Source: an uncultured Gammaproteobacteria bacterium
Lineage (GTDB): Bacteria; Patescibacteriota; Patescibacteriia; SG8-24
NCBI GenBank assembly: GCA_964491475.1
Contig: CAZBFO010000001.1
Span: 263,538-327,537 of the forward strand
Direction of reading: 5' to 3'
DNA length: 64,000 nt
Positions 28,898 to 53,279 of this stretch are shown here, piece after piece (positions within the stretch are counted from its first letter, which is position 1; each line of letters begins with the position of its first letter). The translations under genes were made by a program, and so were the position numbers. The notes under the pieces are model-generated. The model saw only the letters and a program-made list of their open reading frames with translations. It searched no databases and was not told the DNA's origin.

Positions 28898-28900
28898 ACC

Positions 28901-29938
28901 ATGCGCCTCCCCATCGTCGACCAGGCATTCTTCGCCCAACGGCTGGCATTCCTCATTGATGGCGGCATGCCGCTGCTCGAAGCGCTGGCCGTGACCGAAC
29001 GGCAGCTGCGTTCAAAAGATGCCAAGCGCGTCGCGGCAACGCTCCACGCGGAAGTGTCACGAGGACGATCGTTGGGCGACGGGATGCAGGCCACCGGCGC
29101 GTTCGGCGGCGCTGCCGTGACGTTGGTGAGCGTCGGGGAGAGGTGCGGAATGCTGGGACGGAACCTGCAACGGCTTGCGGACGAGATGAAGAAAGGCCGT
29201 CGGCTGCGCAGAAAGGTGCTTGGCGCAATGGCTTATCCGTGCATCGTGCTGACGGCAACCTGCGGCATCGTCGTCTACCTGCTGGCCTCGTTGCTGCCGA
29301 AGCTGTTGCCGATGTTCGCCGAGTTGCACGCCGAATTGCCGCCGAGCACGCGGGCAGTCATCGCCTTGTCGGGATTTTTGCGGAGATACGGGGCATGGAT
29401 GGCGGCCGCCGCCGTTACGGTTCTCGGTTGCATTCGGCTTTTGCGACTCCGCCCGCAAATGCGGCAACGATGCGAGCTGGCGCTGCTGCGCGTGCCGGCC
29501 ATCGGTCCCCTGCTCCGTGACCTGCAACTGGCCCGATTGGGCAGGTCCGTCGGGACGATGCTTTCAGGCGGACTCTCGCTGCGTGACGCCTGCGCCCTTG
29601 CGGCCGACCCGGGTGCGGGCGCGTACGACGCGCAGCTGCTGGCGATGGCCGAGGCCGTCAACGAGGGACGTTCCTTGTCCTCTCACCTGGCGACGCAGCC
29701 GAAGCTCTTCCCCGAAGCGTTTACGCAGTTGGTCGCGTCCGGAGAAGAGAGCGGCAAGCTGCCCGAAGCGTTCCTGTACCTGGCCGACCACTACGAGCGC
29801 GAGATTGACGAGTCTGCGGCCGGATTGTCCGCGACGCTGGAACCGGCGCTGATGCTGCTTACCGGCGCCGCGGTCGGATTCATCGCCATTGCCGTCATCT
29901 CGCCGATGTATTCCCTGACCCAATCGCTGCATGCGTGA
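28901..29938 (+). CDS. type II secretion / type IV pilus platform protein (GspF/PilC/ComGB family)
   Basis: 345 aa, T2SSF-like repeats with 3 TM segments, directly after the ATPase. Confidence 0.8.
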   Translation: MRLPIVDQAFFAQRLAFLIDGGMPLLEALAVTERQLRSKDAKRVAATLHAEVSRGRSLGDGMQATGAFGGAAVTLVSVGERCGMLGRNLQRLADEMKKGRRLRRKVLGAMAYPCIVLTATCGIVVYLLASLLPKLLPMFAELHAELPPSTRAVIALSGFLRRYGAWMAAAAVTVLGCIRLLRLRPQMRQRCELALLRVPAIGPLLRDLQLARLGRSVGTMLSGGLSLRDACALAADPGAGAYDAQLLAMAEAVNEGRSLSSHLATQPKLFPEAFTQLVASGEESGKLPEAFLYLADHYEREIDESAAGLSATLEPALMLLTGAAVGFIAIAVISPMYSLTQSLHA

Positions 29939-38564: not shown

Positions 38565-39048
38565 GGCGCTCCTTGACGATGGCCATGACGTTGTCGGTCT
38601 TGATCTTGCCTTCCTGCAGCAGAAACCACTGGTTAACGCGGGGAATGGTGCGGAGCCAGCGGACGATCACCGAATGGAAGGCGTTGGGGCGGGTCTTCTT
38701 CTGGTCGATCAGGGTGCGGACCTCCTCGGCTGCCTTTTCGCCTTCGGCGCGGAACTTGGCGCGAGCGTCCTTTGGCATGGCGTAGTACGCATCCCACAGG
38801 TTCTCTTCGAGCACGCGTTCCACTTTCATCCGCGTTTCGTCCTTGGTCACCGGTGCGGGGGCGGAAGCGGGCGCCGGGGCGGCCGCTGGCGTCGGAGCAG
38901 GCGTCTGGGAAGGCTCGGGTGCACGAACCTCGGCGCTCGGGCTGGGCGCCTCCCTGTTCGGCTCTGATTCCTTCGCGGTTTCCGGGGAACGCGGCGCCTC
39001 GGGCGGCTTTTCCATGCCCATTCCGGCTCCCATTTCGCCGTTCATCAT
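38536..39048 (-). CDS. hypothetical protein (Pro/Ala-rich N-terminal, globular C-terminal), overlaps start of the ATPase gene
   Basis: 170-aa ORF whose 3' end overlaps the ATPase start by about 29 nt, suggesting coupling. Confidence 0.5.
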   Translation of the reverse strand: MMNGEMGAGMGMEKPPEAPRSPETAKESEPNREAPSPSAEVRAPEPSQTPAPTPAAAPAPASAPAPVTKDETRMKVERVLEENLWDAYYAMPKDARAKFRAEGEKAAEEVRTLIDQKKTRPNAFHSVIVRWLRTIPRVNQWFLLQEGKIKTDNVMAIVKERRAADGVFED

Positions 39049-41668: not shown

Positions 41669-42322
41669 TCAAGGGGCTCGGAGGGCCTTTGGAGGCGAGT
41701 CGGACGGCTTCCCCGTCGTCATGAAAACGGGAACGCCGATGACGATGGCGCTTGCGGTGAACTGTTCCTTTTCCTTGATGTCCTCGCCGGACATGGCTTC
41801 GACGACGATTCCCGGACGAACGTCGGCAAGCGTCGCCTTCGTGTCGACATACGGCATGGGATGCGAACCGCGCCGACCCTTTGCGTCGTAGTCCTGCAGT
41901 TCCTTCATGAAAATTGAGGCATCCTTCTGCGTCCGCACCGCGAACGACGTCTTTGCGTCGACCATGACCGTCCTTTCCTCGGGTATCGACGAATATTCGC
42001 TCGGCCAAGATTCCACTTGCATGGCGAACGATGCGGCCCCGACGTTCATGACGTGTCCGGATACGGTGAGCAATGTCTTCGGCTCAAACGGGGAAGGTCC
42101 GCGGACGACCGGCGCAGCAGACGGTTCCCGTGCCGCATGCGGAGATGCCTCCTGGTGCGCCCGAAAGCTCCCGGTGTCCTTAGCATCCCCGACCGTCAAG
42201 GCGCGATCAGAGGGCGGTGCGCTGCGTCCGAAGGAGTAACCGATGAGCGTGCCTACGGCCATAGACGCGGCCACCAGTGCCAAAATCGAACCGGTCATGG
42301 ATTGTGGATGTCTTTCGCTCAT
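41669..42322 (-). CDS. membrane-anchored protein, member of a 4-copy paralog family (N-terminal TM, about 120-aa beta-rich possible OB-fold domain, Pro-rich tail)
   Basis: TM MSERHPQSMTGSILALVAASMAVGTLIG; core TLLTVSGHVMNVGAASFAMQV... similar to the cores of the 42412, 46759 and 50994 genes. Confidence 0.5.
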   Translation of the reverse strand: MSERHPQSMTGSILALVAASMAVGTLIGYSFGRSAPPSDRALTVGDAKDTGSFRAHQEASPHAAREPSAAPVVRGPSPFEPKTLLTVSGHVMNVGAASFAMQVESWPSEYSSIPEERTVMVDAKTSFAVRTQKDASIFMKELQDYDAKGRRGSHPMPYVDTKATLADVRPGIVVEAMSGEDIKEKEQFTASAIVIGVPVFMTTGKPSDSPPKALRAP

Positions 42323-42411
42323 GGAAATGCCTTACGTAGACGGCGGAGACCGTCGTCACATGCAGAAAATCGGACCCCGAGCGCGGAATCCGATTCCTGC
42401 CTTAGCAATCG

Positions 42412-43128
42412 TTAGCGCGGCGCCTGACCGCTTGGGACGACTACGGGCGGAATGGCCGCACCCGCAGACGGCGGGCCTACTGGCGCATCCGAAGGAGGCA
42501 GAGGGACCGTCGCTCGCTGCAAATCCGGAGGCGCGGCGTTCTTGTCCAAGGAAACGGTCGCGGCCGCGAACTTCGGCTGTGCCTTCACGTCGCCAGTGGT
42601 CTCAATCTGTACGTGCATGCCGACCTTCACGTCCCCGATGCTGCCAATTGCCGTTTCGAACTGGGAAGGAGGGGCTATGTCGGTAACCGGAGGCGTTGCG
42701 GAACCGGTCGGAGGCGCGAGCACAGGCTTCTTGAAAGCCTGCAGCTCCTTCGCTACTGCCGCAGGATCCCTGGGTGACCTGACGTTGATTTTCGTGTTGG
42801 CGTCGATGACGACCTCACGTGTCAATGGAACGTCAGTAACGAGAGGGTTCAGCACTTGGTCGTCGACAGTGACGGTAAAAGACGACTCCCCGACGTTCGT
42901 TACCGTACCCGTCAGATGGCGCAACTCCTTCGGTTCCGGAACCAGCACGCCCGACCGCTCAAGCTTGTCTTTAGCGGCGGCATATCCCTGACTGTAGCCA
43001 TCCGAAAGGAGTCCTTTTCCCGGCGCCGTCGAGGTCGTGCCGTACTTGCAGGCGGCGTAACCAATGACGAGACCGACGGTCAGCGCCACGGCGAAGATCG
43101 CCGGCACCAGACCAGACATTTTCTTCAT
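42412..43128 (-). CDS. membrane-anchored paralog-family protein (as 41669..42322) with long Pro-rich C-terminus
   Basis: MKKMSGLVPAIFAVALTVGLVIGYAA TM; core LTGTVTNVGESSFTVTVDDQ.... SD GGAGA 10 nt upstream of the chosen ATG; lies just downstream of giant gene 1. Confidence 0.5.
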   Translation of the reverse strand: MKKMSGLVPAIFAVALTVGLVIGYAACKYGTTSTAPGKGLLSDGYSQGYAAAKDKLERSGVLVPEPKELRHLTGTVTNVGESSFTVTVDDQVLNPLVTDVPLTREVVIDANTKINVRSPRDPAAVAKELQAFKKPVLAPPTGSATPPVTDIAPPSQFETAIGSIGDVKVGMHVQIETTGDVKAQPKFAAATVSLDKNAAPPDLQRATVPLPPSDAPVGPPSAGAAIPPVVVPSGQAPR

Positions 43129-43151
43129 GTTTGGCATGTCTCCCATAGGCG

Positions 43152-46100
43152 TCATAGCTGATTGCAATACACGTACTGTCCACCGCTCCATACCTGCGTC
43201 ACGAAGTAGCCGTTGGGGCAAGCGCAGGAATTGCCCGGTGCGCAGTACACCCAACCGTAACCGGCACCGTCACTGTTGCCCGAGGCAACCAGGTCGTAGT
43301 AGACGGTCGCGCCCCATGAGGTGATGCCGCCATAGGCATAAATGTTACCGCTCGCCGACATCCAACTGGAAGAGGAGAGCGTACTCACACTCGTGGCGCC
43401 GGCGCTAAGACTGCCGGAAATGGACGCGTTACCGCTGTTGTTGAGCGTGCCGGATCCAAGGAAGGAATACGGACCGCTTCCGTAGACGCCGGCGTAGGTT
43501 CCCGTGCCGTAGACGCCATACGAACCGCCATTGCCGTACACGCCGTAGGTGCCGCCAGAACCCTGACCGTAAACGCCCGTGGAAGTACCTGAACCGATGA
43601 CGCCGTAGAATCCGGAACCCTGCACGCCGTAAGTTTGGCCGGTTCCCGAAACGCCGATACCTCCCCCCGCATTGACGGTGCCCTGAACGCCGATCCAGCT
43701 GCTCGTACCGAACAAACCGTAATTTGAACCGCTGCCGTAGACGCCGTAGGTGCCGCCAGTGCCGTTGACGCCGTATGATCCGCCGTTGCCCGCGACGCCC
43801 GTGGTGGAACCGACGCCCGCGACGCCATAGGAACCGTTACCGTAGAGGCCGTAATTTCCTCCTTGTCCCCAGACGCCGTAGGTGTTACCGCTGCCATACA
43901 TGCCGGTGCCGATACCGGTGCCGTACACGCCAAAAGTGCCGTTACCGTACACGCCGTAGGTGCCGCCGTTGCCGTAGACGCCGTAGGTGCCGGAAGAGCT
44001 GAAGCTGCCACCGGTCGTAGAACCGCTTCCATAGACACCTTGTGTTCCGCCAGCGAACCAGCCGCCCCAATTAGGTCCGGTACCGTAGACGCCGATACCC
44101 GCACCGCCCGTCGAAGTACCGGAGACGCCGTAGCTGGGACCTTCGCCATAGACGCCATAGGCGCTGCCGTAACCGCGAACGCCCATGTTGCTGCTGGGAG
44201 AGACGCCCGCGCCGAGATTGGACTGGACGTAAGCGTCACCGAGCACCATCAGCTTTTGGCCCGATGCCGAGCCGCCGATGCCGACGGTCGTGCCGTTATC
44301 GACGATCTGCGAATTGCCTATGCTCGAGGCGGCAGTGAACTTCGGTACGTAGTTGGCGGTGCCGCTGCCCGTCACGCCTGCCACATTCGTGTCCGTAATC
44401 GTGACCGCGCCGGTCGAGCCGGAGAGGCTGATGCCCGAACCGGCCGTGAGCGACGTCACGCCCGTGTTCGAGAAGGTCACCGCGCCGGTAGCGCCGGACA
44501 CGCCGATGCCGGTGCCGGCCGTGGCGGAGGTGACGCCGGTGTTGGAAACGACGACCGCGCCCGTGGTGGGAGCGACGGAAATGCCAGATCCGGATCCGGA
44601 GACGGAAGTGACCGGCGCAGAGGCAGCTGTCGTCCAAGTGCCGTTGCCGGAAGCGTCAGAAGTGAGCACCTTGCCCGCGCCAGCGCCCGTGGCCATCAGG
44701 AAGCCGGTCATCTTGGCGGTGCCGTTGACGTCGAGTTTCTGCGTCGGGACGGCGACGCCGAGACCGAGGTTGCCGGACAAGTAGCTCTGGCCGCCGGCAG
44801 AATAGAGGGCGTACTTGTTGGTGCCGACGCCGATGGAGTCGATGTAGATGCCGTAGTTATTGGTGAGGGTTCCGGACGGCGTACCGCTCTGGTAAACGCG
44901 CAAGCCGTAGGCGTTGGTGACGTTGGCGGGGTTGCCGAAGTACAGGTTCGAGTACATGCCGTACAGGTTGGTGATGGTACCTGAACCGCCGTTCGAGGCG
45001 GCACCGTAAACGCCGGCCATGTCCGTCACCGCGCCGGAGCCGCTGCGGTACACTTCGCCGTTGACCGCGTAGGCGGACTGCGTCGTTCCGCTATGACCGA
45101 CGACCACGTTGGCCTCGATGCCGCTCAACCAGCTGGTGAAGTTGGTCGCTCCGGCAGAGCTGGTATCGACGTCGGCGTAAATGGCATCGAACCAGCTGGC
45201 CGGGCTGGCCGACGGAACCGGCTTGATGATGTTGGACATGCCCAGGCCGATGTTGCCGGTCAGGTTCTCCGAGATGTTCGTGACGTAATTGGTGCTGGTG
45301 CTCGCGGTCGCGCCGAAGGCCGAATGGCCGGCGACGGTCAGCTTGCCGCTGGTGGAAGTGTCGCCAGCCGAGGTGACCTTGAACTGCGAGGTGGGACCGA
45401 CGGAGAGCAGGGCGGTAGGCGCGGCATTGCCGATACCGACGTTGGTGCCGTCATCGAACACCAGCGAATTGCCGATGGCGCTGGCAGAGGTGAACTTGGC
45501 GTGGTAATTGGTGGTGCCGCTGCCCGTGATGCCGGACTGCGTGGTCCAGGTGCCGTTGCCGGAGGCATCGGAAACCAGCACCTTGCCCGCGCCCGCGCCG
45601 GTCGTCAGCTGCAAGCCGGTCATCTTGGCGGTGCCGTTGACATCAAGAAGAGTGCCCGGTGTCGAGGTGCCGATGCCGACGTAGCCGTTTTGATCGATCC
45701 TGACGCGCTCGGCGCGGGTCGTCGAGCCGTTGGGGGTGGTTTCAAGCGTGAGCAAGGTGCCATGCGCGGCATCGGTCTGATTTTCCGCAGCGCGGATGAT
45801 GAAGGCGCCGTTGCTCAATGACGAGAACCCCGTGGTGCCATAGGCCCGGCCGCTGAAGAACGCCAGGGCGTCACCGGACTGCGCGGCGGTAGGCGCGGCG
45901 GTGGTTCCACGCGCGCGGCGTCCCGTGAAGTTCGAGGCAACCGCCGAGCCGTAGGAGTCGACGTTCGCCGCCACGGGGTCGACGGTGCCGACGATGTTCA
46001 GGCTGCCGGTCGGCGTAGAAGTACCGATGCCCAAGCTGCCGTACAAGCCCATGTACATGCTGGTGCCGCCCGAACCCCAGTTGCCGACGTTCAGCGTGGT

Positions 46101-46607
46101 CACGCCGGAGCCGTCGACGCGGATGGCCTTGCCGCTGGAGAGGTAGGCGTCGCCGCCGCTCGACTTGAGGTCGCCAGTGACGCTGATGTAGCCGGTCTGC
46201 GCGGACGACGGGCTGATGAGGACGTAAGGGTTGTCGCAGGTGTCGGCGCAGACGTTCCAGGTGCTGCCGGTGGGGCAGGTGCGGTTAGTGACGCAAGAGC
46301 CGGAGCTGGAACATTGCGTCGTGCCTGACGGGCACACGCAGCTCAACGACGAGCAGTCATACACCTGCGTGGACGAAGTGCACGGACGAGAATCCGATTG
46401 GCACGAGGCGTCAGACGCCCGGTACAGCAGGCCGCCGAAGCAGGTGGTGCCGCCGCCCGAGGTGGGACAGGCGCAGGAGGCCTGCGTGGAGTTGTAGGGG
46501 CAGGTCTGGGCGGATGCGGCAACGGGCAGCAAGGTCGAACCAGCTGCGATGAGCAAAGAAGCAACGACACTAACGAAGACTGCGGCTCGAGAACGGGCCA
46601 TACGCAT
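43152..46607 (-). CDS. giant secreted fibre-like protein 1: Cys-rich N-domain, tail-fibre-like GIGTxxP...LDVNG modules, Gly/Tyr nonapeptide array, Cys-containing C-terminal cap
   Basis: 1151 aa. Signal peptide MRMARSRAAVFVSVVASLLIAAGSTLLPVAASA; about 16 Cys in residues 35-125. Repeated VGIGTSTPGTLLDVNGTAKMTG-type motifs and an about 200-aa run of xYGVYGxGx. C-terminus YCAPGNSCACPNGYFVTQVWSGGQYVYCNQL. Paralog of the 47405..49816 gene. Confidence 0.75.
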   Translation of the reverse strand: MRMARSRAAVFVSVVASLLIAAGSTLLPVAASAQTCPYNSTQASCACPTSGGGTTCFGGLLYRASDASCQSDSRPCTSSTQVYDCSSLSCVCPSGTTQCSSSGSCVTNRTCPTGSTWNVCADTCDNPYVLISPSSAQTGYISVTGDLKSSGGDAYLSSGKAIRVDGSGVTTLNVGNWGSGGTSMYMGLYGSLGIGTSTPTGSLNIVGTVDPVAANVDSYGSAVASNFTGRRARGTTAAPTAAQSGDALAFFSGRAYGTTGFSSLSNGAFIIRAAENQTDAAHGTLLTLETTPNGSTTRAERVRIDQNGYVGIGTSTPGTLLDVNGTAKMTGLQLTTGAGAGKVLVSDASGNGTWTTQSGITGSGTTNYHAKFTSASAIGNSLVFDDGTNVGIGNAAPTALLSVGPTSQFKVTSAGDTSTSGKLTVAGHSAFGATASTSTNYVTNISENLTGNIGLGMSNIIKPVPSASPASWFDAIYADVDTSSAGATNFTSWLSGIEANVVVGHSGTTQSAYAVNGEVYRSGSGAVTDMAGVYGAASNGGSGTITNLYGMYSNLYFGNPANVTNAYGLRVYQSGTPSGTLTNNYGIYIDSIGVGTNKYALYSAGGQSYLSGNLGLGVAVPTQKLDVNGTAKMTGFLMATGAGAGKVLTSDASGNGTWTTAASAPVTSVSGSGSGISVAPTTGAVVVSNTGVTSATAGTGIGVSGATGAVTFSNTGVTSLTAGSGISLSGSTGAVTITDTNVAGVTGSGTANYVPKFTAASSIGNSQIVDNGTTVGIGGSASGQKLMVLGDAYVQSNLGAGVSPSSNMGVRGYGSAYGVYGEGPSYGVSGTSTGGAGIGVYGTGPNWGGWFAGGTQGVYGSGSTTGGSFSSSGTYGVYGNGGTYGVYGNGTFGVYGTGIGTGMYGSGNTYGVWGQGGNYGLYGNGSYGVAGVGSTTGVAGNGGSYGVNGTGGTYGVYGSGSNYGLFGTSSWIGVQGTVNAGGGIGVSGTGQTYGVQGSGFYGVIGSGTSTGVYGQGSGGTYGVYGNGGSYGVYGTGTYAGVYGSGPYSFLGSGTLNNSGNASISGSLSAGATSVSTLSSSSWMSASGNIYAYGGITSWGATVYYDLVASGNSDGAGYGWVYCAPGNSCACPNGYFVTQVWSGGQYVYCNQL

Positions 46608-46630
46608 GCATGTATTAGTAAATCGCGTTC

Positions 46631-46639
46631 AGCATAGCA
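46631..46639 (-). promoter_or_regulatory. extended -10 box TGCTATGCT about 24 nt upstream of giant gene 1 ATG
   Basis: Read on the minus strand within an AT-rich divergent region 46608-46758. Confidence 0.4.
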
Positions 46640-46715
46640 CAAAAAAAGGTAAAAAGTTTAACTTATCCACAGATGAAGGCCGAAAACGGCACTGACTGCG
46701 CGTCCTCCACGGTTC

Positions 46716-46724
46716 TGCTATACT
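46716..46724 (+). promoter_or_regulatory. extended -10 box TGCTATACT about 35 nt upstream of the 46759 gene
   Basis: ggttcTGCTATACTcacggcg read directly. Confidence 0.4.
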
Positions 46725-46758
46725 CACGGCGTTTTCACCCCACCCTCATCAAATCGCC

Positions 46759-47364
46759 ATGCCGACCGGCCAGAACCAGTTTAGCGGCTCCCGATCGCCA
46801 GTGATCACCATGGTAACCATGACGGCCTTCGCTTTGGCGGTCGGTATCGGCATCGGTTTCTCTTGGGGCAAGCGTGCTGCAAAGCGAGTCGGCGCAGAAT
46901 CCCCTGCCGGCACGCAGCAAGCACGGGGTCCGTCCTCGCGGACACCGTTGCCGCCGTCGGTCATGGTCACGTTGGTCGGCACTGTCGAGACGGTTTCGTC
47001 CGATTCGTTCACGATGGAAGCGCAGCGTCCGCCGTTCCCGGGAACGTGGTTGGCAGAGCGCAAAGTGCGCGTCGACAAGTCCACCGCTTTCGTTCGCATG
47101 CAGCCAAAAGACGCCGAACAGTCAGCCAAGGACGCGGAAGCATACGTCACGGCGCAAAACCGGCACCCCGCATCTGGGAGCAAGCGGCCCACCCCGTACA
47201 CGGAGACGCCCGCAAAGTTCAGCGAGATACGGACCGGAACGCTCGTGGTGGTGTACGCCTCTCCCGAAGTGCACCTCGAGGACGCCGCGGAGTTCACCGC
47301 CACGCGCATCGAAACCGGCCCTCCGCCCACGACGCCTACGAACCCGCCGAAACCGAAAGGATGA
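46759..47364 (+). CDS. membrane-anchored paralog-family protein (as 41669..42322)
   Basis: TM ITMVTMTAFALAVGIGIGFSW; core TLVGTVETVSSDSFTMEA...; Pro/Thr-rich tail; convergent with giant gene 2. Confidence 0.5.
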   Translation: MPTGQNQFSGSRSPVITMVTMTAFALAVGIGIGFSWGKRAAKRVGAESPAGTQQARGPSSRTPLPPSVMVTLVGTVETVSSDSFTMEAQRPPFPGTWLAERKVRVDKSTAFVRMQPKDAEQSAKDAEAYVTAQNRHPASGSKRPTPYTETPAKFSEIRTGTLVVVYASPEVHLEDAAEFTATRIETGPPPTTPTNPPKPKG

Positions 47365-47404
47365 AAAAGCCGCCTCGTCGGGCGGCTTTTCCGTACCTCG
47401 CCCG

Positions 47405-49816
47405 TTACAGGCGCGAGCAATAGATCCAGGTGTTCGTTCCCCAGGACGCCCAGTACGGGTTCGACCCGTACACGCCGACCATGAACATGCCGTTCGGGCA
47501 GACGCAGTAGGAGCTGGTGCACTGGTAGTACTGGTTGGTTCCCCAGGAATTTCCTTCGGCCGCCAGGTCGTAGAAGATGTTCGCGCCCCAGGAAGTCAGG
47601 CCGTTGTAGGCGGTGATGGCGTTGCCGGAAATGTTGCCGTTGATCGACATGTTGCCGTTGTTGGTGATGATGCCGCTGCCGCTGAACGCGTACCAGTTGG
47701 TGCCGATCGAGGCGCTGGTCGGGTTGGAACAGCCGGTGCAGTAAAAGTAGCCGCCCGTCGAACCGACGCCCTGTACGCCGATGCTGTTGCCGTTGCCGTA
47801 CACGCCGACGCTGCTGCCGCTTCCGTAGACGCCGGTCGGACCGTTGCCGTTCACGCCATAGGTGGTGCCGTTGCCCTGGACGCCGTACGAGCCTCCCGCG
47901 CCGATGACGCCGTAATTGGAACCGTAGGAGTAGATGCCGGTCGGACCGCCGTAGCTGCGGATGCCGTAGCTGCTACCGGTAGTGTAGACGCCGTCAGTGC
48001 CGCCGGTGGTGTAGACGCCGTCGGTGGAGCCCTGGGCGTAGACGCCGTACGTGGAACCGTCGCCACGCAGGCCGATCTGGCCGGTGCCATAGCCGCCATA
48101 CAGGGTACCGACCGCGTTGATGCCCGTGTAGCCGTGGGTGTCGATGCCGGTATTGGGCGAAGTCACGTAGACGCCGGTGCCTGAACCAGTGGCGGAGAAG
48201 TAGCCGCCGTAGGTCGCGCCCGTCGCCGCCAAGCCGGTGCTCGAAAGCGACGAGAAGCTGCCGCCGTAGCTCGACTGGCTGTATCCCGTGACGCCGAAGC
48301 CGGAGTTCGAAGTGCCGTACACGCCCGAAGTGGCGTTGGCGCTGCCGCCGTATACGCCGTAGGTGGTGCCGTTACCGTACACGCCGTACGAACCCGCCGC
48401 GTACACGCCAAAGGAAGGGTTGGGCGTCATGCCGCCGAAGCCGGCAGTGCCGGTCGCGCGCAGGTTACCGGTGACATCCAGCGGATAAGCCGGGGCCGCG
48501 TTGGCCACGCCGACGTACGAGCCGTTGTCGTAGATGAGCGAGTTGCCGATCGACGTGGAAGCGGTGAACTTCGGCACGTAGTTGGTGGTGCCGCTGCCGC
48601 TGATGCCAGCCGGAACCGTATTGGAAATGGTCACCGAGCCCGTCGAGCCCGACAGGCTGATGCCCGAGCCGGCGGCGAGCGAGGTCACGCCGGTGTTCGA
48701 GAAGGTCACCGCACCGGTGCCGCTCGATACGCCGATGCCGGTACCGGCCGCAGCAGAAGTCACGCCGGTATTGGAGACGACGACAGCGCCAGTGGTCGGG
48801 CTCACCGAAATGCCCGCGCCAGAACCGGAGACCGAGGTGACCGGGGCGCTGTAAGTGGCCCACGTGCCGTTGCCGGAAGCGTCAGAAGTGAGCAACTTTC
48901 CGGCGCCAGCGCCCGTGGCCATCAGGAAGCCGGTCATCTTGGCAGTGCCGTTGACGTCGAGCTTCTGGGCCGGCGTGGTGGTGCCGACGCCGAGGTTGCC
49001 GCTACCCTGCATCAACGACAGCAGCGTCAGGCCATTGATGTTGTCGCGGAAGTACAGGTCATTGGTGCTGCTGTTGCGCAGGCCGACGCTCCATTGGGTC
49101 GTTCCGGCGGTGTCGAAGGAGAGCGAAGCAAAATCGGTGGCAGGTGCCTCGCGACGAATGGTCAAGGATGTGGTGCCGCCGTTAGCGATCTTCACGTTGC
49201 CCTGCACGTCCAGCTTGGCAGAAGGTGTCGAGGTGCCCAGACCCAGGTTGCCGTACACGCCCATGTTGAGACCGGTCGCACCGGACCCCCAATTGCCCAC
49301 GTTCAGCGTGGTCACGCCGGAGCCGTCGACGCGGATGGCCTTGCCGCTGGAAAGGTAGGCGTCGCCGCCGCTCGACTTGAGGTCGCCGGTCACGTTGATG
49401 AAGCCGGTCTGCACCGAGGACGGGCTGATCAGCACATAGGGATTGTCGCAAGTGTCGGTGCAGACGTTCCAGGTGCTTCCTGCCGGGCAGGTGCGATTGG
49501 TGACGCAAGCCCCCGAGCTGGAACAGAGCGTGGTGCCAGAAGGGCAGACGCAGCTCAAAGTGGAGCAGTCATACACCTGGGCGGAAGAGCCGCAGGGGCG
49601 CGAGTCCGCGCGGCAGGACGAATCCGAAGCGCGGTACAGCAGGCCGCCGAAACAGGTGGTGCCGCCGCCCGAGGTGGGGCAGGCGCAGGAGGCCTGCGTG
49701 GAGTTGTAAGGGCAGGTCTGGGCGGATGCCATCCCGGCAATCGTCAACGAAGAAAAGACGAAGGCTACCGTGGCCGCGAACTTGCCGAACCGTAACCGCT
49801 GCTGCCGCATGCTCAT
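47405..49816 (-). CDS. giant secreted fibre-like protein 2 (paralog of 43152..46607)
   Basis: 803 aa. N-terminal 180 aa about 90 percent identical to giant 1, shared internal segment (KLDVNGTAKMTGFLMATGAGAGK...NYVPKFTA), divergent Gly/Tyr repeat array, C-terminal YCVCPNGMF...WIYCSRL. Confidence 0.75.
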   Translation of the reverse strand: MSMRQQRLRFGKFAATVAFVFSSLTIAGMASAQTCPYNSTQASCACPTSGGGTTCFGGLLYRASDSSCRADSRPCGSSAQVYDCSTLSCVCPSGTTLCSSSGACVTNRTCPAGSTWNVCTDTCDNPYVLISPSSVQTGFINVTGDLKSSGGDAYLSSGKAIRVDGSGVTTLNVGNWGSGATGLNMGVYGNLGLGTSTPSAKLDVQGNVKIANGGTTSLTIRREAPATDFASLSFDTAGTTQWSVGLRNSSTNDLYFRDNINGLTLLSLMQGSGNLGVGTTTPAQKLDVNGTAKMTGFLMATGAGAGKLLTSDASGNGTWATYSAPVTSVSGSGAGISVSPTTGAVVVSNTGVTSAAAGTGIGVSSGTGAVTFSNTGVTSLAAGSGISLSGSTGSVTISNTVPAGISGSGTTNYVPKFTASTSIGNSLIYDNGSYVGVANAAPAYPLDVTGNLRATGTAGFGGMTPNPSFGVYAAGSYGVYGNGTTYGVYGGSANATSGVYGTSNSGFGVTGYSQSSYGGSFSSLSSTGLAATGATYGGYFSATGSGTGVYVTSPNTGIDTHGYTGINAVGTLYGGYGTGQIGLRGDGSTYGVYAQGSTDGVYTTGGTDGVYTTGSSYGIRSYGGPTGIYSYGSNYGVIGAGGSYGVQGNGTTYGVNGNGPTGVYGSGSSVGVYGNGNSIGVQGVGSTGGYFYCTGCSNPTSASIGTNWYAFSGSGIITNNGNMSINGNISGNAITAYNGLTSWGANIFYDLAAEGNSWGTNQYYQCTSSYCVCPNGMFMVGVYGSNPYWASWGTNTWIYCSRL

Positions 49817-49839
49817 ACTCTTGAGGGGGAAAGTTGCCG

Positions 49840-50850
49840 CTACTTGCAGCAGGCGTACTTAAGTCCGACCGGAATGTTGCATCCCGTGAGCGTGCCGCGT
49901 CCACCGGAGGTGTTGTCGAATGCCCAGACGCTGCCGAACACCGACGCGCTGGTGCTGGTCCAACCGAGACAGTCGCTGGCGTTGAAGGCCGAAGCGCCCG
50001 GCGGACCGTTGTCGATCCAAGCGAAGTTGCCGCCGTTGCTGCGCACCGGATCGCTGGATGTCGAGCACTGGATGCTCTCAAGCATCTCTTCGGAGCGGCA
50101 GACGTGCGAACCGGCGTACTGCGTGGAGCACTTGTCGTCGGCGGAATAGTATCCCGTCTGACCGACGTTGGTGTGGCCCGTGGGCACCGCGGCCAAATTG
50201 GGCGTGTAGGCAGAAGTCGTCAGGCCGACGAACACCTTGCCGAAGCAGCCCGAGGTGCTGATGCTGCCGGTGTAAGTGAGGTTGCCGTTGGGGTCGACGC
50301 GGAACTTGGTGACGCCGTTGTTCTGCAGGAGCAGCAGCGAAGTGTTGGCGGTGCCGCTCTGGATGTTGCCGTAGAGGAGGTTCTGCGTGCCGGTCAGCGG
50401 CAGCGTCGACTTGCCGAAAGTGTTCATGCCGGCAGCCGAAACGCCGCCGTCGATGTCGATCGAGGCGTTCGTCTGCGTGCCCGAAGAACTGACGCGGTTC
50501 CAAATGATGGCCGGGATGTTTCCGCCCGGCGGCAAGGCCGTCGGCGGCGTGTAGGTGGCAGCACTGACAGTATGGATCACGAACCCGCCAATCGAGATGA
50601 TTGCCATGGCGAAACCGAAGAACGCGGCGATGAGCCGGAACGGCGAAGCGTTGGCGCGTACCGACACGGGCAAGGCAGCGGGCACCGGCGCGGACGCAAA
50701 AATCTCGGCAGGCTCGGTGACCGGTACCGACCGCCGAACCGCACGTCTGGCGCGGATCGGTTTCCGCGTGGTTCCCCCGCTTTTCTTGGCGGAAATTTTC
50801 CGCTCACACTTGGGAGCACCCTTTGGCAAAGCTTTGCGTTTTGCCGCCAT
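49840..50850 (-). CDS. type-II membrane protein with basic cytoplasmic N-terminus and Cys-containing extracellular domain, 24 nt upstream of giant gene 2
   Basis: MAAKRKALPKGAPKCERKISAKKSGG... then TM FRLIAAFFGFAMAIISIGGFVIHTV; extracellular Thr/Ser/Gly-rich domain ending CNIPVGLKYACCK. Start at the second Met of the track ORF. Confidence 0.55.
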   Translation of the reverse strand: MAAKRKALPKGAPKCERKISAKKSGGTTRKPIRARRAVRRSVPVTEPAEIFASAPVPAALPVSVRANASPFRLIAAFFGFAMAIISIGGFVIHTVSAATYTPPTALPPGGNIPAIIWNRVSSSGTQTNASIDIDGGVSAAGMNTFGKSTLPLTGTQNLLYGNIQSGTANTSLLLLQNNGVTKFRVDPNGNLTYTGSISTSGCFGKVFVGLTTSAYTPNLAAVPTGHTNVGQTGYYSADDKCSTQYAGSHVCRSEEMLESIQCSTSSDPVRSNGGNFAWIDNGPPGASAFNASDCLGWTSTSASVFGSVWAFDNTSGGRGTLTGCNIPVGLKYACCK

Positions 50851-50993
50851 AAGATAAGGAAAAATCACCGCTACTATACCATAAGGCGGCCCCCTCACCC
50901 AGCATCGGCGTTATCCACAATGCACCGACGTGCAGCGCTTCCCGAAAAACGCTATAGTCATTGCAGCTTTTCCTATTACTAAAAGACAGCACT

Positions 50994-52034
50994 ATGCCTC
51001 CAAGCCCAATGATGTCGCGCCAGTCGACATCTTCGATGAGCTCATCATCGGCAAAGATGCCCTCGCGCGGCATGCCCGGCGCCGGTCCGGTACTCGCCCT
51101 GCTCCTTGCGGGCGCCACATTCATCGGCGGCTACTACCTCGGCTCTCTGGCCGGACAGAAAGCCGGCTATCGGCAAGGCAGCGAAGAAACGAAGGCCGAC
51201 CTCAAGTCAAAAATCGCGGCGTCAGGTGCGTTCCCCACCCAGACGGAAATTCACGCGCTTTCCGGCAAAGTGACTGCCGTCCGGCCTGACGGTTTCGACC
51301 TCGACGTTTCCGCAGCGCAAAAGAACCCGCTAGAAGACTCCGGCCCGGCCAAGCGCTCCATTTCCGTGACCGAAAAGACCAAGATTTCCCTGCTCAAGCA
51401 ACGTGACTTCGCCGAATTCGAAGCCGCGCAGAAGGAATACCTGGCCACGCTCCAGAAAACGTCAGGCAAGACTGATCAGAAGCCGACAGAGCCTCCGCAA
51501 CCGTTCATGTTGGAACCGCTCAAATTGAGCGACATCAAGGTGGGAATGACCGTAGCGGTTTCCTCCGAAGCGAACATCGCCAAGGCGGCCACCATCCAGC
51601 CGACCGAGGTGACCGTCCAACCTGCACCGCCGCAACCGGCGCAAATTCCCGGCGCTCCGGCTCCCGGCACGGTGCCGCCGCCCGGCGCACCGACTCCGCC
51701 GCCCGGCGCCCCGGCCCCCGGCCCCGGCCCGGCACCGACAATCAAGTACAAGAAAAAGCCCCGGCTCACTGCCGGGGTTTTTGCTTGCATGCCAAGGTCA
51801 CCTCAACGCTTGCCCGCGAACTCTTCGCTCTTCACGAACGCCAGCGCCAGGATCGGCGCCACGATCCAGAAGAACCGCCCGTTGTCCGAGGCGAACACCT
51901 GCCGAGTCATCGGCGCCAAGTGCGAGACCGTTTCGGACGGAAGAAATGACAGGATGATGCTCACCAAAAGTCCGACATGGAAGGTGGAGAACAGAATCAC
52001 CTGCCACCACTTGGCCCCCGCGATGCCGCCGTAG
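50994..52034 (+). CDS. membrane-anchored paralog-family protein; 3' end uncertain (assembled ORF runs through a terminator hairpin and into the convergent gene)
   Basis: TATAGT box at about 50953. MPPSPMMSRQ... TM PVLALLLAGATFIGGYYLG; core LSGKVTAVRPDGFDLDVS...; Pro-rich PGAPAPGTVPPPGAPTPPPGAPAPGPGPAP. After about 51760 the GC3 bias of this frame collapses while the minus-strand frame is strongly coding. Confidence 0.4.
   Translation: MPPSPMMSRQSTSSMSSSSAKMPSRGMPGAGPVLALLLAGATFIGGYYLGSLAGQKAGYRQGSEETKADLKSKIAASGAFPTQTEIHALSGKVTAVRPDGFDLDVSAAQKNPLEDSGPAKRSISVTEKTKISLLKQRDFAEFEAAQKEYLATLQKTSGKTDQKPTEPPQPFMLEPLKLSDIKVGMTVAVSSEANIAKAATIQPTEVTVQPAPPQPAQIPGAPAPGTVPPPGAPTPPPGAPAPGPGPAPTIKYKKKPRLTAGVFACMPRSPQRLPANSSLFTNASARIGATIQKNRPLSEANTCRVIGAKCETVSDGRNDRMMLTKSPTWKVENRITCHHLAPAMPP
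51752..51783. terminator. bidirectional rho-independent terminator
   Basis: gccccggc-tcact-gccgggg hairpin flanked by AAAAA and TTTTT; downstream of the minus-strand gene ending at 51803. Confidence 0.55.
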
Positions 52035-52438
52035 GTCTTGGCCAAAGCCGAGCGCGAGGTCAGCAGGAACAGCAGCACGAACGTCGCCAGGAAAGTGAGC
52101 GCCTTGAAGGCGAAGAAGTTCCCCGAATTCGCCGTACGGTCGAGCGTGTTAATGTACGGCGCGTTGGTGACCACCGCCAGCGCCATGTAGATGTTGACGA
52201 GAATGACGATGACCCGCTCGCGCCCCATCGAGATGCCGTACAGGAACACGGTCACCATGAAGAACAGCACGATGAAGAGGTCCCAAGTGGGCGACGACCA
52301 GTTGATGTGCTGCAGGTAGGTCGTGGCGTCCTGCCCCAAGCGCATCGCGCCGGCAGAGAGCGGCGCGTTCACGTTGGCATTGCTGGCCGTGCTGCTCATG
52401 CTGCCGTAGTTCGAACCGCTGATGATGGTCTCCAACAT
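51803..52438 (-). CDS. hypothetical polytopic membrane protein
   Basis: About 211 aa from MLETIISGSNYG. About 5 TM helices, strong GC3. The track ORF extends 47 codons further upstream. Confidence 0.55.
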   Translation of the reverse strand: MLETIISGSNYGSMSSTASNANVNAPLSAGAMRLGQDATTYLQHINWSSPTWDLFIVLFFMVTVFLYGISMGRERVIVILVNIYMALAVVTNAPYINTLDRTANSGNFFAFKALTFLATFVLLFLLTSRSALAKTYGGIAGAKWWQVILFSTFHVGLLVSIILSFLPSETVSHLAPMTRQVFASDNGRFFWIVAPILALAFVKSEEFAGKR

Positions 52439-52544
52439 ATGGACGGAGTATAGCGCACGGAACGGGGAGTTTAAAGCAACGCCGTGACGAAAAGAAAGGC
52501 GACACCCGCATAAACGGGTGCCGCCGAAAGCAATACGATACTTG

Positions 52545-53279
52545 TCAGGTCCGGTGTTCACCGAAGCTGCAGCCGCCATCGCTGTCGATGGAGGCGAACT
52601 TCGTGCCGAATCCGAGTGAGACCTTGCTCAGCTCGCGGGGATCGAAGGGATCGTCCTTCTCCGGAGCGGAGAGTGAAACCGTTCGACCATCCTTAAGCTC
52701 CAACGTGAATCCGCTGCCGTCGAAGTTCGGCACAAGGCGTGCCACGCCGACGGCAACGATTGCCGCAGACACTTCGTCGGTGAACTTTTCCACCGCTCTT
52801 TGGCGTTCCTCGCGTGCACGCTTAGCCTCTTGTGCCCGAAGGGACTTCTTCTCCTCCTCGCGCCGTTTCGTTTCCTCTGCGGCGCGTTCCTGCTCGCGAC
52901 GAGCGCGATTGCGCTCGGCTTCGTATGTGGGCAAGTGCACCAACTTGAGCGCTACGGCCTCGTAGGGAATTTCCCTCCAGCCGCCGCCGTGGATCTTCTT
53001 CTTTTGCTCTCGGCGGACTTTGGTGATGCTGAAGACGATGGTCTTCACGCCGTTGTGGTCCTCACCGAAGTTCATCCGAGTGTCTTCGCAGTCGATGCTC
53101 GCCGAAATCAGCTCGGTCTTGCCTGCCGTTCCCGACTCGCGGCTGACGATAACGGCGGAACCGTCATCCGTCATCGCCACGTTCCGAACCGGAAGCGGTT
53201 GCCGCATGGGGATGCGCACCGCCCACTCGCCCGAAGAGACTTCAGTCCGCAGCTGTGAAAAGACTTCGTCGGTAATCAT
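52545..53279 (-). CDS. hypothetical protein with central charged coiled-coil segment
   Basis: 244-aa ORF; RARREQERAAEETKRREEEKKSLRAQEAKRAREERQRAVEK region. Preceded by TTGACA-17-TGCTATATT promoter. Confidence 0.5.
   Translation of the reverse strand: MITDEVFSQLRTEVSSGEWAVRIPMRQPLPVRNVAMTDDGSAVIVSRESGTAGKTELISASIDCEDTRMNFGEDHNGVKTIVFSITKVRREQKKKIHGGGWREIPYEAVALKLVHLPTYEAERNRARREQERAAEETKRREEEKKSLRAQEAKRAREERQRAVEKFTDEVSAAIVAVGVARLVPNFDGSGFTLELKDGRTVSLSAPEKDDPFDPRELSKVSLGFGTKFASIDSDGGCSFGEHRT

What the first reader, a model, noticed from the sequence alone, without database searches (positions are those of the whole stretch)
41669..52438. Cell-surface island: two giant fibre-like secreted paralogs plus a four-copy family of small membrane-anchored proteins
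Within about 11 kb there are two giant secreted proteins with the same modular build:
- signal peptide;
- a Cys-rich module of about 90 aa;
- repeated tail-fibre-like GIGTxxP...(K)LDVNG units;
- a long Gly/Tyr array;
- a short Cys-containing C-terminal cap.

Each giant gene is flanked by members of a small paralog family (41669-42322, 42412-43128, 46759-47364, 50994-). Family members share an N-terminal TM anchor, a beta-rich core of about 120 aa (LxGxVxxVxxxxFxxxV... resembling OB-fold BOF/YgiW-type domains), and a Pro-rich tail.

A Cys-rich type-II membrane protein (49840-50850) sits 24 nt upstream of giant gene 2. Its own extracellular domain ends in a CC-containing tail.

The arrangement looks like a dedicated system for building or anchoring a surface fibre or adhesin, rather than isolated hypothetical genes. 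I do not recognise it as any described pilus, S-layer or adhesin operon.
Basis: partly seen in the sequence, partly recalled or inferred. Interest (0 to 1): 0.8.

Follow-up and report, generated by a model that had tools for sequence, protein, structure and literature searches.

The report
Tail-fibre-like adhesin island in an ultrasmall bacterium
A chromosomal island of a candidate-phyla-radiation (Patescibacteria) bacterium encodes three exported, phage-tail-fibre-like surface fibres with swappable tips and four small membrane-anchored OB-fold partner proteins, which makes it a plausible host-recognition kit for a group whose attachment mechanism is largely unknown.

Summary
In detail: the two giants are 50% identical paralogues, the four small proteins are paralogues, and a Cys-rich membrane protein lies 23 nt from giant 2.

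**What the parts are**
- The giants' stalk is homologous to the Bdellovibrio MAT adhesive fibres (family profile against PDB: Bd2133 E 8.6e-8). The tips are mosaic. Orthologues at the same site end in a Peptidase_S74 chaperone or a C-type-lectin-like domain.

**Context**
- The island is not a prophage. It sits between DnaJ and CysRS at a site conserved in more than ten related contigs.
- In fibre-containing loci, all 27 small-family genes lie within 1 kb of a fibre gene.
- A low-GC lineage has the same three parts as one operon.
- In the high-GC clade the downstream small protein co-varies with the fibre tip, not with the N-terminus or the genome background.

**Reading**
These are most likely host-recognition fibres with dedicated extracytoplasmic partners, either assembly chaperones or docks. 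I class it as a new variant of a known kind. No function has been tested.

The parts
43152..46607 (-). Giant fibre 1 (1151 aa). Order of modules: signal peptide, Cys-rich N-module, GNWG domain, three GIGT..KLDVNG units, 25-aa repeats, 9-aa Gly/Tyr array, 4-Cys cap.
46053..46508 (-). Giant 1 conserved N-terminal module (aa 34-185): 14 Cys, then NPYVLISP...GNWG.
   Evidence: About 80% identical (alignment A5) to the same module of giant 2. 55-81% identical (alignment A5, first sequence giant 2) to homologues from other contigs. No PDB or viral relative..
43458..44225 (-). Giant 1 Gly/Tyr array (aa about 795-1050), xYGVxGxGx nonapeptide repeats.
   Evidence: Autocorrelation peak at lag 9; 27-nt DNA repeats..
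43155..43355 (-). Giant 1 C-terminal 4-Cys cap tip (type A: SWG..YYDL...C.CPNG...YC).
   Evidence: The same tip type occurs on L005a and L008a fibres..
47405..49816 (-). Giant fibre 2 (803 aa), same build as giant 1 with two GIGT..KLDV units.
49265..49720 (-). Giant 2 conserved N-terminal Cys-rich/GNWG module (aa 33-184).
47747..48454 (-). Giant 2 Gly/Tyr nonapeptide array (aa about 455-690).
47408..47614 (-). Giant 2 C-terminal Cys cap tip.
49840..50850 (-). Short N-terminally anchored fibre ("type II", 336 aa). Order of modules: Lys/Arg-rich cytoplasmic tail, TM helix (aa 70-87) ending VSA|AT, conserved PPGGNIPxIIWNR motif, one fibre unit, lectin-like tip.
   Evidence: 75-88% identical to orthologues..
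49843..50238 (-). C-type-lectin-like tip domain of the short fibre (aa about 205-336, 8 Cys, ends ACCK).
41669..42322 (-). small1: TM-anchored OB-fold protein with no fibre gene of its own next to it (orphan copy).
42412..43128 (-). small2: TM-anchored OB-fold protein with a Pro-rich tail, 23 nt downstream of giant 1.
   Evidence: AF2 pLDDT 84, OB fold. Most similar to the small proteins that follow type-A-tipped fibres in L005 and L008..
46759..47364 (+). small3: a family member that lies just beyond the 3' end of giant 2 (40-nt gap) on the opposite strand, convergent with it.
50994..52034 (+). small4: a family member divergent from the short fibre. The homologous part ends near 51746; the ORF has no stop codon there.
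   Evidence: 53-56% identical to the orthologues in L002 and L003..
51759..51777 (.). Bidirectional intrinsic terminator hairpin between small4 and the convergent membrane-protein gene.
51803..52441 (-). Polytopic membrane protein of about 190-210 aa. It always flanks the cassette in the high-GC clade; whether it belongs to the system is uncertain.
   Evidence: 56-88% identical copies sit next to the cassette at 13 distinct loci (16 BLAST rows, three of them duplicate fetches). Absent from the low-GC and L079 versions..

Best explanation
The island is a fibre-adhesin locus of a Patescibacteria (CPR) bacterium.

**Fibres.** It encodes three exported, probably trimeric fibres built like phage tail fibres and like the Bdellovibrio MAT adhesins.
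- Each fibre has a conserved cell-proximal N-terminus. In the two giants this is a signal peptide plus a Cys-rich/GNWG module. In the short fibre it is a membrane anchor plus a PPGGNIP motif.
- Each has a modular beta-helical stalk made of GIGT..KLDVNG units, 25-aa repeats and a 9-aa Gly/Tyr array.
- Each has an exchangeable distal tip: a 4-Cys cap on the giants and a C-type-lectin-like domain on the short fibre.
- The tips most likely bind surface structures of the host cell on which the bacterium lives. The locus diversifies by duplication and by swapping tip cassettes.

**Small proteins.** The four small proteins are N-in/C-out membrane-anchored OB-fold proteins with Pro-rich tails. I read them as dedicated extracytoplasmic partners of the fibres.
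- The most likely role is a tethered assembly or stabilising factor for tips that lack an in-built S74 chaperone. This would be functionally analogous to the tail-fibre assembly proteins encoded just downstream of phage fibre genes.
- A dock that retains the fibre at the surface is the less likely alternative.

**Shown:** gene content, paralogy, stalk homology to MAT fibres, the lectin-like and OB folds, conserved clustering, and tip/partner co-variation.

**Inferred:** trimerisation, surface display, host binding, and the role of the small proteins.
For: **Stalk homology**
- A family profile of 8 fibres hits Bd2133 (8OND, E 8.6e-8) and other MAT structures (8OJN, 8ONB, 8ONC; E 1.8e-7).
- The single sequence hits 8OND weakly.
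- A Thermus phage distal tail fibre matches at E 3e-5.

**Mosaic build**
- The N-terminal 180 aa are conserved, while the middle and the tips are mosaic.
- The orthologue at the same site in L002 ends in Peptidase_S74 with an SDRRVK motif and matches phage tail-fibre PHROGs.
- P0006 and the L011, L014, L015 and L080 fibres carry the lectin-like tip.

**Published model.** The MAT paper describes the same logic: signal peptide, conserved N-domain, trimeric fibre, and swappable S74, lectin and other tips for prey recognition.

**Chromosomal context.** The island lies between DnaK/DnaJ and CysRS/CorA/VirD4. This site is conserved in L001-L003, L005, L006, L008, L009, L014-L018 and L080.

**Small family**
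- 27 of 27 family ORFs in fibre-containing loci lie within 1 kb of a fibre ORF, and 25 are directly adjacent. Only 23% of non-fibre bases lie that close.
- Four of four informative contigs reached by starting from small-family members have adjacent fibres. One of these is the non-syntenic L079.
- A low-GC lineage has a co-directional operon: anchored lectin protein, Cys-rich lectin protein, Cys-rich fibre, small OB protein.

**Co-variation in the high-GC clade**
- Small-protein similarity tracks tip similarity (Mantel r 0.66, p 0.004). It does not track the N-module (r -0.09) or the flanking membrane protein (r -0.10).
- Cys-cap tips are followed by a small gene in 8 of 8 cases. S74 and lectin tips are followed by one in 0 of 8 (Fisher 1.6e-4).
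Against: - No experiment supports any function, and no multimer model could be made.
- The high-GC loci are one orthologous site in related genomes, so the counts are not independent.
- Tip and small gene are physically adjacent, so one recombination event would move both without any functional tie.
- In the low-GC lineage the small protein tracks the fibre N-terminus (r 0.72), not the tip (r -0.06).
- The S74-tipped fibres in L066 and L079 do have a small gene downstream.
- Many lectin-tipped fibre loci (for example L021, L025, L037, L047, L049) have no small-family gene within 10 kb.
- The small family has 1,643 cluster representatives, against a handful of genomes with this N-module. It therefore cannot be specific to these giants.
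- The window's giants have no Pfam, NCBIfam or strong PHROG match.
- The N-terminal module could not be compared with the Bdellovibrio MAT N-domain.
Confidence: 0.6

Rival explanations
1. The fibres are as in the best explanation, but the small OB-fold proteins are membrane docks. The OB domain or the Pro-rich tail holds the secreted fibre, which has no anchor of its own, at the cell surface. This would be the "surface element" postulated for MAT N-domains.
For: - The giants have a cleavable signal peptide and no sortase motif, TM segment or lipobox, so something must retain them.
- The small proteins are N-in/C-out with a wall-spanning-type Pro-rich tail.
- In the low-GC lineage the small protein co-varies with the fibre N-terminus.
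- The MAT paper leaves the binding partner of the N-domain unidentified.
Against: - In the high-GC clade the N-module is highly conserved (normalised alignment score 0.85-0.90 between the window and L003), while the adjacent small proteins are only 4-10% similar on the same scale. They track the tip instead.
- S74-tipped and lectin-tipped giants with the same N-module have no small gene of their own.
Confidence: 0.2
2. The giants are structural envelope proteins (S-layer-like or wall-associated) with no role in host recognition. The small OB-fold proteins are unrelated envelope proteins that merely share a conserved neighbourhood.
For: - All high-GC cases are one syntenic site next to housekeeping genes.
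- The small family is very large.
- It is absent from many fibre loci.
Against: - Adjacency recurs in a non-syntenic context (L079) and in a separate low-GC operon.
- The number and type of fibres and small genes vary while the flanks stay fixed, as expected for a diversifying host-interaction locus.
- The giants are 41-52% identical between genomes whose short fibre is 75-88% identical.
- The tips are adhesion-type domains.
Confidence: 0.1
3. This is a polymorphic toxin system. The giant exoproteins deliver variable C-terminal toxin domains, and each is followed by a cognate immunity gene (the small proteins). small1 would be an orphan immunity gene.
For: - The N-terminus is conserved, the C-terminus is variable, and a small gene immediately downstream co-varies with the tip.
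- An extra small gene lies at the end of the array.
Against: - All the small proteins belong to a single OB-fold family that faces outward, whatever the tip type.
- The tips are 60-110-aa Cys-rich caps with no toxin family match.
- Other tips at the same position are a lectin-like domain and an S74 chaperone.
- The stalk is homologous to adhesive MAT fibres.
Confidence: 0.05
4. The giants are prophage or phage-remnant tail-fibre genes.
For: - They contain tail-fibre-type repeat units.
- An orthologue carries an S74 domain and hits tail-fibre PHROGs.
- There are weak matches to Thermus phage fibres.
- The lectin-like tip type occurs on 2 IMG/VR contigs.
Against: - No phage structural, integrase or lysis gene is nearby. 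The flanks are DnaK/DnaJ, CysRS, CorA and DnaX.
- The site is conserved in many related genomes.
- The giants have Sec signal peptides.
- The N-module is absent from 2.9 million viral contigs.
- Only 3 of 50,697 phage records match, each covering at most 20% of the query.
Confidence: 0.02

Closest known systems
Bdellovibrio bacteriovorus MAT (mosaic adhesive trimeric) fibres: Bd2133, Bd2740, Bd3182 and others (Caulton et al. 2024, PMC10769870)
   Same: - Both have a Sec signal peptide and an N-terminal module conserved among paralogues.
- Both have a long repetitive stalk with sequence homology (E 8.6e-8 to Bd2133).
- Both have mosaic C-terminal tips that include S74 and C-type-lectin folds. 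The short fibre's tip best matches the Bd2740 tip.
- Both have several paralogues per genome.
- Both belong to a bacterium that lives on other bacteria.
   Different: - The N-module here is Cys-rich (14-20 Cys) and has no detectable relative. Its homology to the roughly 130-aa MAT N-domain is untested.
- The Gly/Tyr nonapeptide array and the 4-Cys cap tips are not among the tips described for MAT fibres.
- One fibre is membrane-anchored.
- The organism is a Patescibacteria member, which is thought to lack an outer membrane.
- The genes are clustered with a dedicated small OB-fold family, which is not reported for MAT fibres.
Phage tail fibre plus tail-fibre-assembly chaperone cassettes (for example lambda stf-tfa, Mu S-U, T4 gp37-gp38; from my own knowledge)
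   Same: - The fibre gene is followed at once by a small gene.
- The fibre tip and the small gene are exchanged together.
- Fibres with an intramolecular S74 chaperone lack the small gene (in the high-GC clade).
   Different: - The small proteins are membrane-anchored OB folds that face outward, with no structural match to viral proteins (BFVD best E 0.04).
- The fibres are Sec-exported cellular proteins, not virion parts.
- No phage genes are nearby.
C-type-lectin-fold receptor-binding tips (Bordetella phage Mtd and DGR targets; invasin and intimin)
   Different: - There is no template/variable repeat pair in the window.
- The tip is 75-88% conserved between relatives, so it is not hypervariable.
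- There is no Pfam Lectin_C match.
Bacterial secreted or anchored OB-fold proteins (YobA 4QY7, PilY2 3TDQ, BOF/YgiW, DUF5666, CcmE)
   Different: - No sequence match reaches a Pfam threshold. DUF5666 matches only 3 of 53 members, with best E 1.8e-4.
- The barrel has an inserted helix.
- The linkage to fibre genes is new.

Membership tests
MAT fibre family (Bdellovibrio) | Signal peptide followed directly by an N-terminal domain conserved among all paralogues. | tested here: inconclusive
   A signal peptide and a conserved 150-aa N-module are present. Homology to the Bdellovibrio roughly 130-aa beta-rich domain could not be tested, because no sequence or structure of it was available. The module has no PDB hit.
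MAT fibre family (Bdellovibrio) | Stalk homologous to the MAT beta-helical fibre. | tested here: met
   Profile A2 against PDB gives 8OND Bd2133 at E 8.6e-8 and 8OJN/8ONB/8ONC at E 1.8e-7.
MAT fibre family (Bdellovibrio) | Mosaic C-terminal tips, either S74 or non-S74 (lectin, beta-sandwich and others). | tested here: met
   Orthologues carry an S74 tip. The lectin-like tip best matches Bd2740. At least three further Cys-cap tip types occur.
MAT fibre family (Bdellovibrio) | Trimeric fibre displayed on the cell surface that binds prey glycans. | not testable with these tools
   This needs a multimer prediction or an experiment. It is inferred only from the S74 domain in orthologues that share the stalk.
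Phage or prophage tail fibre | Encoded within a phage structural module or prophage. | tested here: not met
   The flanks are housekeeping genes at a conserved chromosomal site. The neighbours have no PHROG hits. The N-module is absent from IMG/VR.
Phage or prophage tail fibre | Significant match to tail-fibre families or a Peptidase_S74 C-terminus. | tested here: not met
   The window's giants have no Pfam or NCBIfam hit. They have only two weak, short PHROG hits (best E 1.5e-5), both to families of unknown function. Three phage records match weakly and partially. Only the L002 orthologue has an S74 domain.
Trimeric autotransporter adhesins (YadA type) | C-terminal YadA-like beta-barrel membrane anchor. 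| tested here: not met
   There is no Pfam hit in either giant. YadA_head repeats occur only in some distant homologues.
Polymorphic toxin / CDI-like systems | Recognisable C-terminal toxin domain with a cognate immunity gene, where the immunity family varies with the toxin. | tested here: not met
   No toxin family match was found. All downstream small proteins belong to one outward-facing OB-fold family.
C-type lectin-like domain (short-fibre tip) | CTLD fold. | tested here: met
C-type lectin-like domain (short-fibre tip) | Sequence membership (Pfam Lectin_C) and Ca/carbohydrate-binding motifs. | tested here: not met
   There is no Pfam hit at E <= 0.1. The binding motifs were not examined.
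OB fold / BOF / DUF5666 (small family) | Five-stranded OB barrel. | tested here: met
OB fold / BOF / DUF5666 (small family) | Pfam model matched above the gathering score. | tested here: not met
   small2 matches DUF5666 at E 0.047 (14 bits against a 27-bit cut-off). Only 3 of 53 family members match weakly. BOF gives no hit.
Diversity-generating retroelement target | Variable repeat at the 3' end of the lectin-fold gene, with a template repeat nearby. | tested here: not met
   No repeat involves 49840-50240 in the 64-kb window. A systematic search for a reverse transcriptase was not done.

The most novel reading that the evidence does not exclude
The small OB-fold membrane proteins are a previously unrecognised class of extracytoplasmic partners for cellular tail-fibre-like adhesins. 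They would be tip-matched assembly or stabilising factors, a cell-surface counterpart of phage tail-fibre assembly proteins. The DnaJ-CysRS site would then be a hot-spot where "tip + partner" cassettes are swapped to change the host range of an episymbiotic Patescibacteria lineage.
Probability: 0.35. Interest if true: 0.75.

Novelty: new variant of a known kind. Interest (0 to 1): 0.6.

Why it matters
How ultrasmall Patescibacteria find and bind their host cells is largely unknown. Type IV pili are the only well-studied factor (abstracts listed).

This locus offers concrete, testable candidates:
- fibres homologous to the prey-recognition fibres of Bdellovibrio;
- a new conserved N-terminal module;
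- new tip domains;
- an accessory protein family with more than 1,600 cluster representatives and no assigned function.

If the tip/partner pairing is real, it would extend the phage logic of "fibre plus chaperone cassette" to proteins folded outside the cell. It would also give a sequence handle for predicting host range in uncultivated lineages.

Tried and rejected
- Pfam, NCBIfam and PHROGs scans of all island proteins gave essentially nothing.
- A word-indexed homologue search with the small-family alignment found only 4 proteins. The exhaustive HMMER search was needed to see the family.
- The small-family profile has no PDB sequence relative; prion hits on the TM segment are spurious. There is no significant match to viral structures.
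- The N-terminal module has no PDB relative and no viral contig hit.
I scanned with the short-fibre alignment instead.
- The afdb50 fold library was unavailable.
- The look-up of the window's own contig failed and no source names the organism. The Patescibacteria assignment rests on the names of homologues and on gene content.
- The DGR idea was rejected because there is no template/variable repeat.
- The prophage idea was rejected.
- I first read L005 and L008 as two loci of one genome. Both carry the same flanking genes, so they are the same site from two organisms in a mixed bin.
- A universal tip-specific chaperone model was weakened by the low-GC lineage.

Full report
**1. Observation**

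| Gene | Coordinates | Strand |
|---|---|---|
| small1 | 41669-42322 | - |
| small2 | 42412-43128 | - |
| giant 1 (1151 aa) | 43152-46607 | - |
| small3 | 46759-47364 | + |
| giant 2 (803 aa) | 47405-49816 | - |
| Cys-rich membrane protein (start taken from orthologues) | 49840-50850 | - |
| small4 | 50994 onward | + |

- The giants are clear paralogues: 50% identity, E 9e-122 over the N-terminal half and 2e-102 over the C-terminal part.
- Both giants have a signal peptide ending ASA|Q and 14 Cys within about 90 residues. Giant 1 has three and giant 2 has two G[IL]GTxxPxxKLDVxG units. Both have a Gly/Tyr array with a 9-residue (27-nt) period and a 4-Cys C-terminal cap.
- The small proteins align end to end at 24-30% identity, with pairwise E-values of 7e-8 to 4e-14.
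- A family HMM finds only these four in the 64-kb window.
- One correction: small4 has no stop codon where its orthologues end. TAC occupies 51747-51749. The ORF reads through a perfect bidirectional terminator hairpin (51759-51777) and overlaps the convergent gene up to 52034.

**2. Genomic context**

- The window has about 62% GC.
- The flanks are housekeeping or envelope genes: PilB and PilC, DnaX, a VirD4-like coupling ATPase, CorA and CysRS on one side; a polytopic membrane protein, DnaJ, a DUF3467 protein and DnaK on the other.
- The contig is 402,943 bp.
- Homologues are named Parcubacteria or Patescibacteria by their sources.
- The neighbours have no phage family hit.
- The same order recurs in three relatives reached through the giant (L001-L003): DnaK, DUF3467, DnaJ, membrane protein, small (opposite strand), short fibre, giant(s), small, CysRS, CorA, 170-aa protein, VirD4-like.
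- BLAST of the membrane protein shows the same order in L005, L006, L008, L009, L012, L014, L015, L017, L018 and L080.
- So this is one chromosomal site in a clade with GC 52-66%. Its content varies between one and at least three giants and between one and four small genes.

**3. What the giants are**

- Neither giant has a Pfam or NCBIfam hit. They have only two weak PHROG hits, both on one GIGT unit.
- The homologue search found 214 proteins. Some carry Peptidase_S74, YadA_head or collagen repeats, and one is named "tail fiber domain-containing protein".
- Alignment of the closest eight shows a strongly conserved first 180 residues (signal peptide, Cys module, NPYVLISP...GNWG). The middle and the C-terminus are mosaic.
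- Tips seen at the same position:
  - the window's 4-Cys cap;
  - a "CFKY" cap;
  - a third Cys cap;
  - Peptidase_S74 with an SDRRVK motif (the L002 orthologue, which then matches phage tail-fibre PHROGs and PDB 6F45);
  - the complete C-terminal domain of the window's Cys-rich membrane protein (P0006 and others).
- Seventeen of the 120 listed hits carry the N-module.
- Only 4 MAGs among 185,579 species representatives have the N-module. No viral contig has it.
- Giant 2 alone hits only Bd2133 (8OND) in the PDB, and weakly (E 0.24). The family profile gives E 8.6e-8 to Bd2133 and 1.8e-7 to 8OJN/8ONB/8ONC.
- These are the Bdellovibrio "mosaic adhesive trimeric" (MAT) fibres. They have a signal peptide, a conserved N-domain, a trimeric beta-helical fibre and swappable tips (S74, beta-sandwich, TNF-like, C-type lectin). 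They are displayed on the predator and bind prey glycans.
- A Thermus phage distal tail fibre also matches residues 140-301 (E 3e-5). Only 3 of 50,697 phage records match at all.

**4. The "type-II" protein is a short fibre with a lectin-like tip**

- Its family (alignment) has, in order: a Lys/Arg-rich N-terminal tail; one hydrophobic helix ending in an AxA-like site; an invariant PPGGNIPxTIWNR motif; one to three fibre-type units; and an 8-Cys C-terminal domain.
- The AF2 model is poor overall (pLDDT 52), but the C-terminal domain has pLDDT 70-87.
- A protein of more than 2,278 aa in L009 has the same N-terminus, six GIGT units and the start of the same tip.
- A metagenome scan found 65 loci with this tip. 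It usually sits at the end of 500-2,200-aa proteins that carry GIGT units, and these are often in tandem arrays.
- Two IMG/VR contigs carry the tip.
- The window has no DGR-type repeat.

**5. The small family**

- The exhaustive profile search found 1,643 cluster representatives at E <= 1e-3 and 874 at E <= 1e-10, nearly all 170-270 aa long.
- Only 3 of 53 members touch DUF5666, all below threshold. There is no PDB sequence relative.
- The AF2 model (53 sequences, pLDDT 84) has a TM helix (14-35), a helix (46-65), a beta-barrel with one inserted helix, and a disordered Pro-rich tail.
- Positive residues before the helix imply an N-in, C-out orientation (read from the sequence).
- No viral structure matches significantly.

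**6. Are the parts linked?**

- In every locus found through the giant's N-module, the short fibre and small-family genes are present too.
- Across all non-duplicate loci that hold a fibre-type ORF, 27 of 27 small-family ORFs lie within 1 kb of one. Twenty-five are directly adjacent, and the other two are second copies next to another small gene. Only 23% of non-fibre bases lie that close.
- Two arrangements recur:
  - a small gene divergent from the short fibre, with a 20-130-nt spacer;
  - a small gene co-directional and 0-120 nt downstream of a giant.
- I also started from small-family representatives. The four informative contigs all have fibres next door:
  - L009 and L011;
  - L080, which has the same synteny;
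  - L079, which has a different context (DnaE and a pilin-like gene) and an 801-aa S74-tipped fibre ending 1 nt before the small gene.
- Two further contigs (L010, L013) were too short to judge.
- A low-GC lineage (39-45% GC; L045, L055, L062, L066, L068) has a co-directional operon: a short anchored lectin-tip protein, a Cys-rich lectin-tip protein, a Cys-rich-N-terminus fibre, and a small OB protein.
- Caveat: the high-GC cases share ancestry, so they are not independent.
- Caveat: many low-GC lectin-tip loci with 10-kb flanks, some on CPR-sized contigs of 0.8-1.1 Mb, have no small-family gene.
- Caveat: the small family is far larger than this fibre subfamily.

**7. What the small proteins might do**

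| Measure (high-GC clade) | Result |
|---|---|
| Downstream small protein vs giant's last 110 residues | Spearman 0.65-0.66; Mantel p 0.004 |
| Downstream small protein vs N-module | r -0.09 |
| Downstream small protein vs flanking membrane protein | r -0.10 |
| Cys-cap tips followed by a small gene | 8 of 8 |
| S74 tips (L002, L006, L019) followed by a small gene | 0 of 3 |
| Lectin tips (L011, L014 twice, L015, L080) followed by a small gene | 0 of 5 |

- An example of the co-variation: L003 is the window's closest relative, with normalised alignment scores of 0.92 for the membrane protein and 0.85 for the N-module. Yet its tip and its small protein match those of the more distant L001 (0.63 and 0.50).
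- The 8/8 versus 0/8 split gives Fisher p 1.6e-4, with non-independent cases.
- This is the pattern of phage "fibre tip plus assembly chaperone" cassettes (my own knowledge). It fits a partner needed by tips that lack an in-built S74 chaperone.
- Evidence against that reading:
  - Adjacency alone would make the tip and the small gene travel together.
  - In the low-GC group the small protein tracks the fibre N-terminus (0.72), not the tip (-0.06).
  - The S74-tipped fibres in L066 and L079 do have a small gene downstream.
- A dock role, holding a fibre that has no anchor of its own, stays open.

**8. Verdict**

- The island is best read as a Patescibacteria version of the MAT or tail-fibre-like adhesin system: three fibres with conserved proximal ends and swappable distal tips, plus a dedicated OB-fold partner family.
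- Shown here: membership in the MAT stalk superfamily, the lectin-like and OB folds, the conserved clustering, and the absence of a prophage.
- Inferred: trimer formation, surface display, host binding, and the chaperone or dock role.
- I rate it a new variant of a known kind, with interest 0.6.

Noticed in passing
window 51600-52034: small4 has no stop codon where its orthologues end (TAC at 51747-51749). The ORF reads through a perfect bidirectional terminator hairpin (51759-51777, T-runs on both strands) and overlaps the convergent membrane-protein gene by about 230 nt. This could be a lost stop codon, a non-stop transcript or an assembly error. Neither small3 nor small4 was returned by the word-indexed homologue search.
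   Followed up: partly
window 51803-52441 (-): A polytopic membrane protein of about 190-210 aa with no family match. It is 56-88% identical at 13 distinct related loci and always sits between DnaJ and the fibre cassette. It may be part of the system or merely syntenic.
   Followed up: partly
window 36003-39048 (-): A VirD4/TraG-like coupling ATPase (853 aa) overlaps a conserved 170-aa Pro/Ala-rich protein. The pair is syntenic in relatives and looks like part of the Patescibacteria type IV secretion system.
   Followed up: no
window 27560-31409 (+): Type IV pilus genes PilB (T2SSE) and PilC (T2SSF) are followed by a 492-aa protein with only a weak LVIVD-repeat hit. They lie about 12 kb from the fibre island.
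   Followed up: no
window 52545-53279 (-): A 244-aa gene with a Lys/Glu/Arg-rich central stretch is inserted between DnaJ and the membrane protein. It has no counterpart at this site in any related locus.
   Followed up: partly
L005 and L008 (DATJFD01, labelled Candidatus Binatia); L001/L007 (CAYOXM01, labelled Gammaproteobacteria): Contigs with non-Patescibacteria labels carry the same Patescibacteria-type locus. DATJFD01 carries it on two contigs, each with its own DUF3467, membrane-protein and 170-aa flanks, so that bin probably mixes two organisms.
   Followed up: partly
L045 8090-13264; L062 8149-12932; L055; L068: Low-GC (39-45%) co-directional operon: a short anchored lectin-tip protein (about 170 aa), a signal-peptide plus Cys-rich lectin-tip protein (about 500 aa), a Cys-rich-N-terminus fibre (530-680 aa, variable tip), and a small OB-fold protein.
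   Followed up: partly
L081 4372-4668; L082 8001-8285 (IMG/VR contigs): The lectin-like tip type also occurs on two contigs classed as viral. The giants' N-terminal Cys module occurs on none.
   Followed up: no
L013 215-1947: In a 41%-GC contig, a small-family gene follows a 295-aa secreted protein with repeated GW...GWIxF motifs and a Cys-rich end. This is a different kind of neighbour from the fibres.
   Followed up: no
window 16123-16764; 22924-23330; 390-554: Three further repeats: a 300-nt direct repeat (76%) inside the ORF at 16100-17389; two 231-nt-spaced repeats inside the ORF at 22705-23415; and a 45-nt inverted repeat (91% complementary, 75-nt loop) at 390-554.
   Followed up: no
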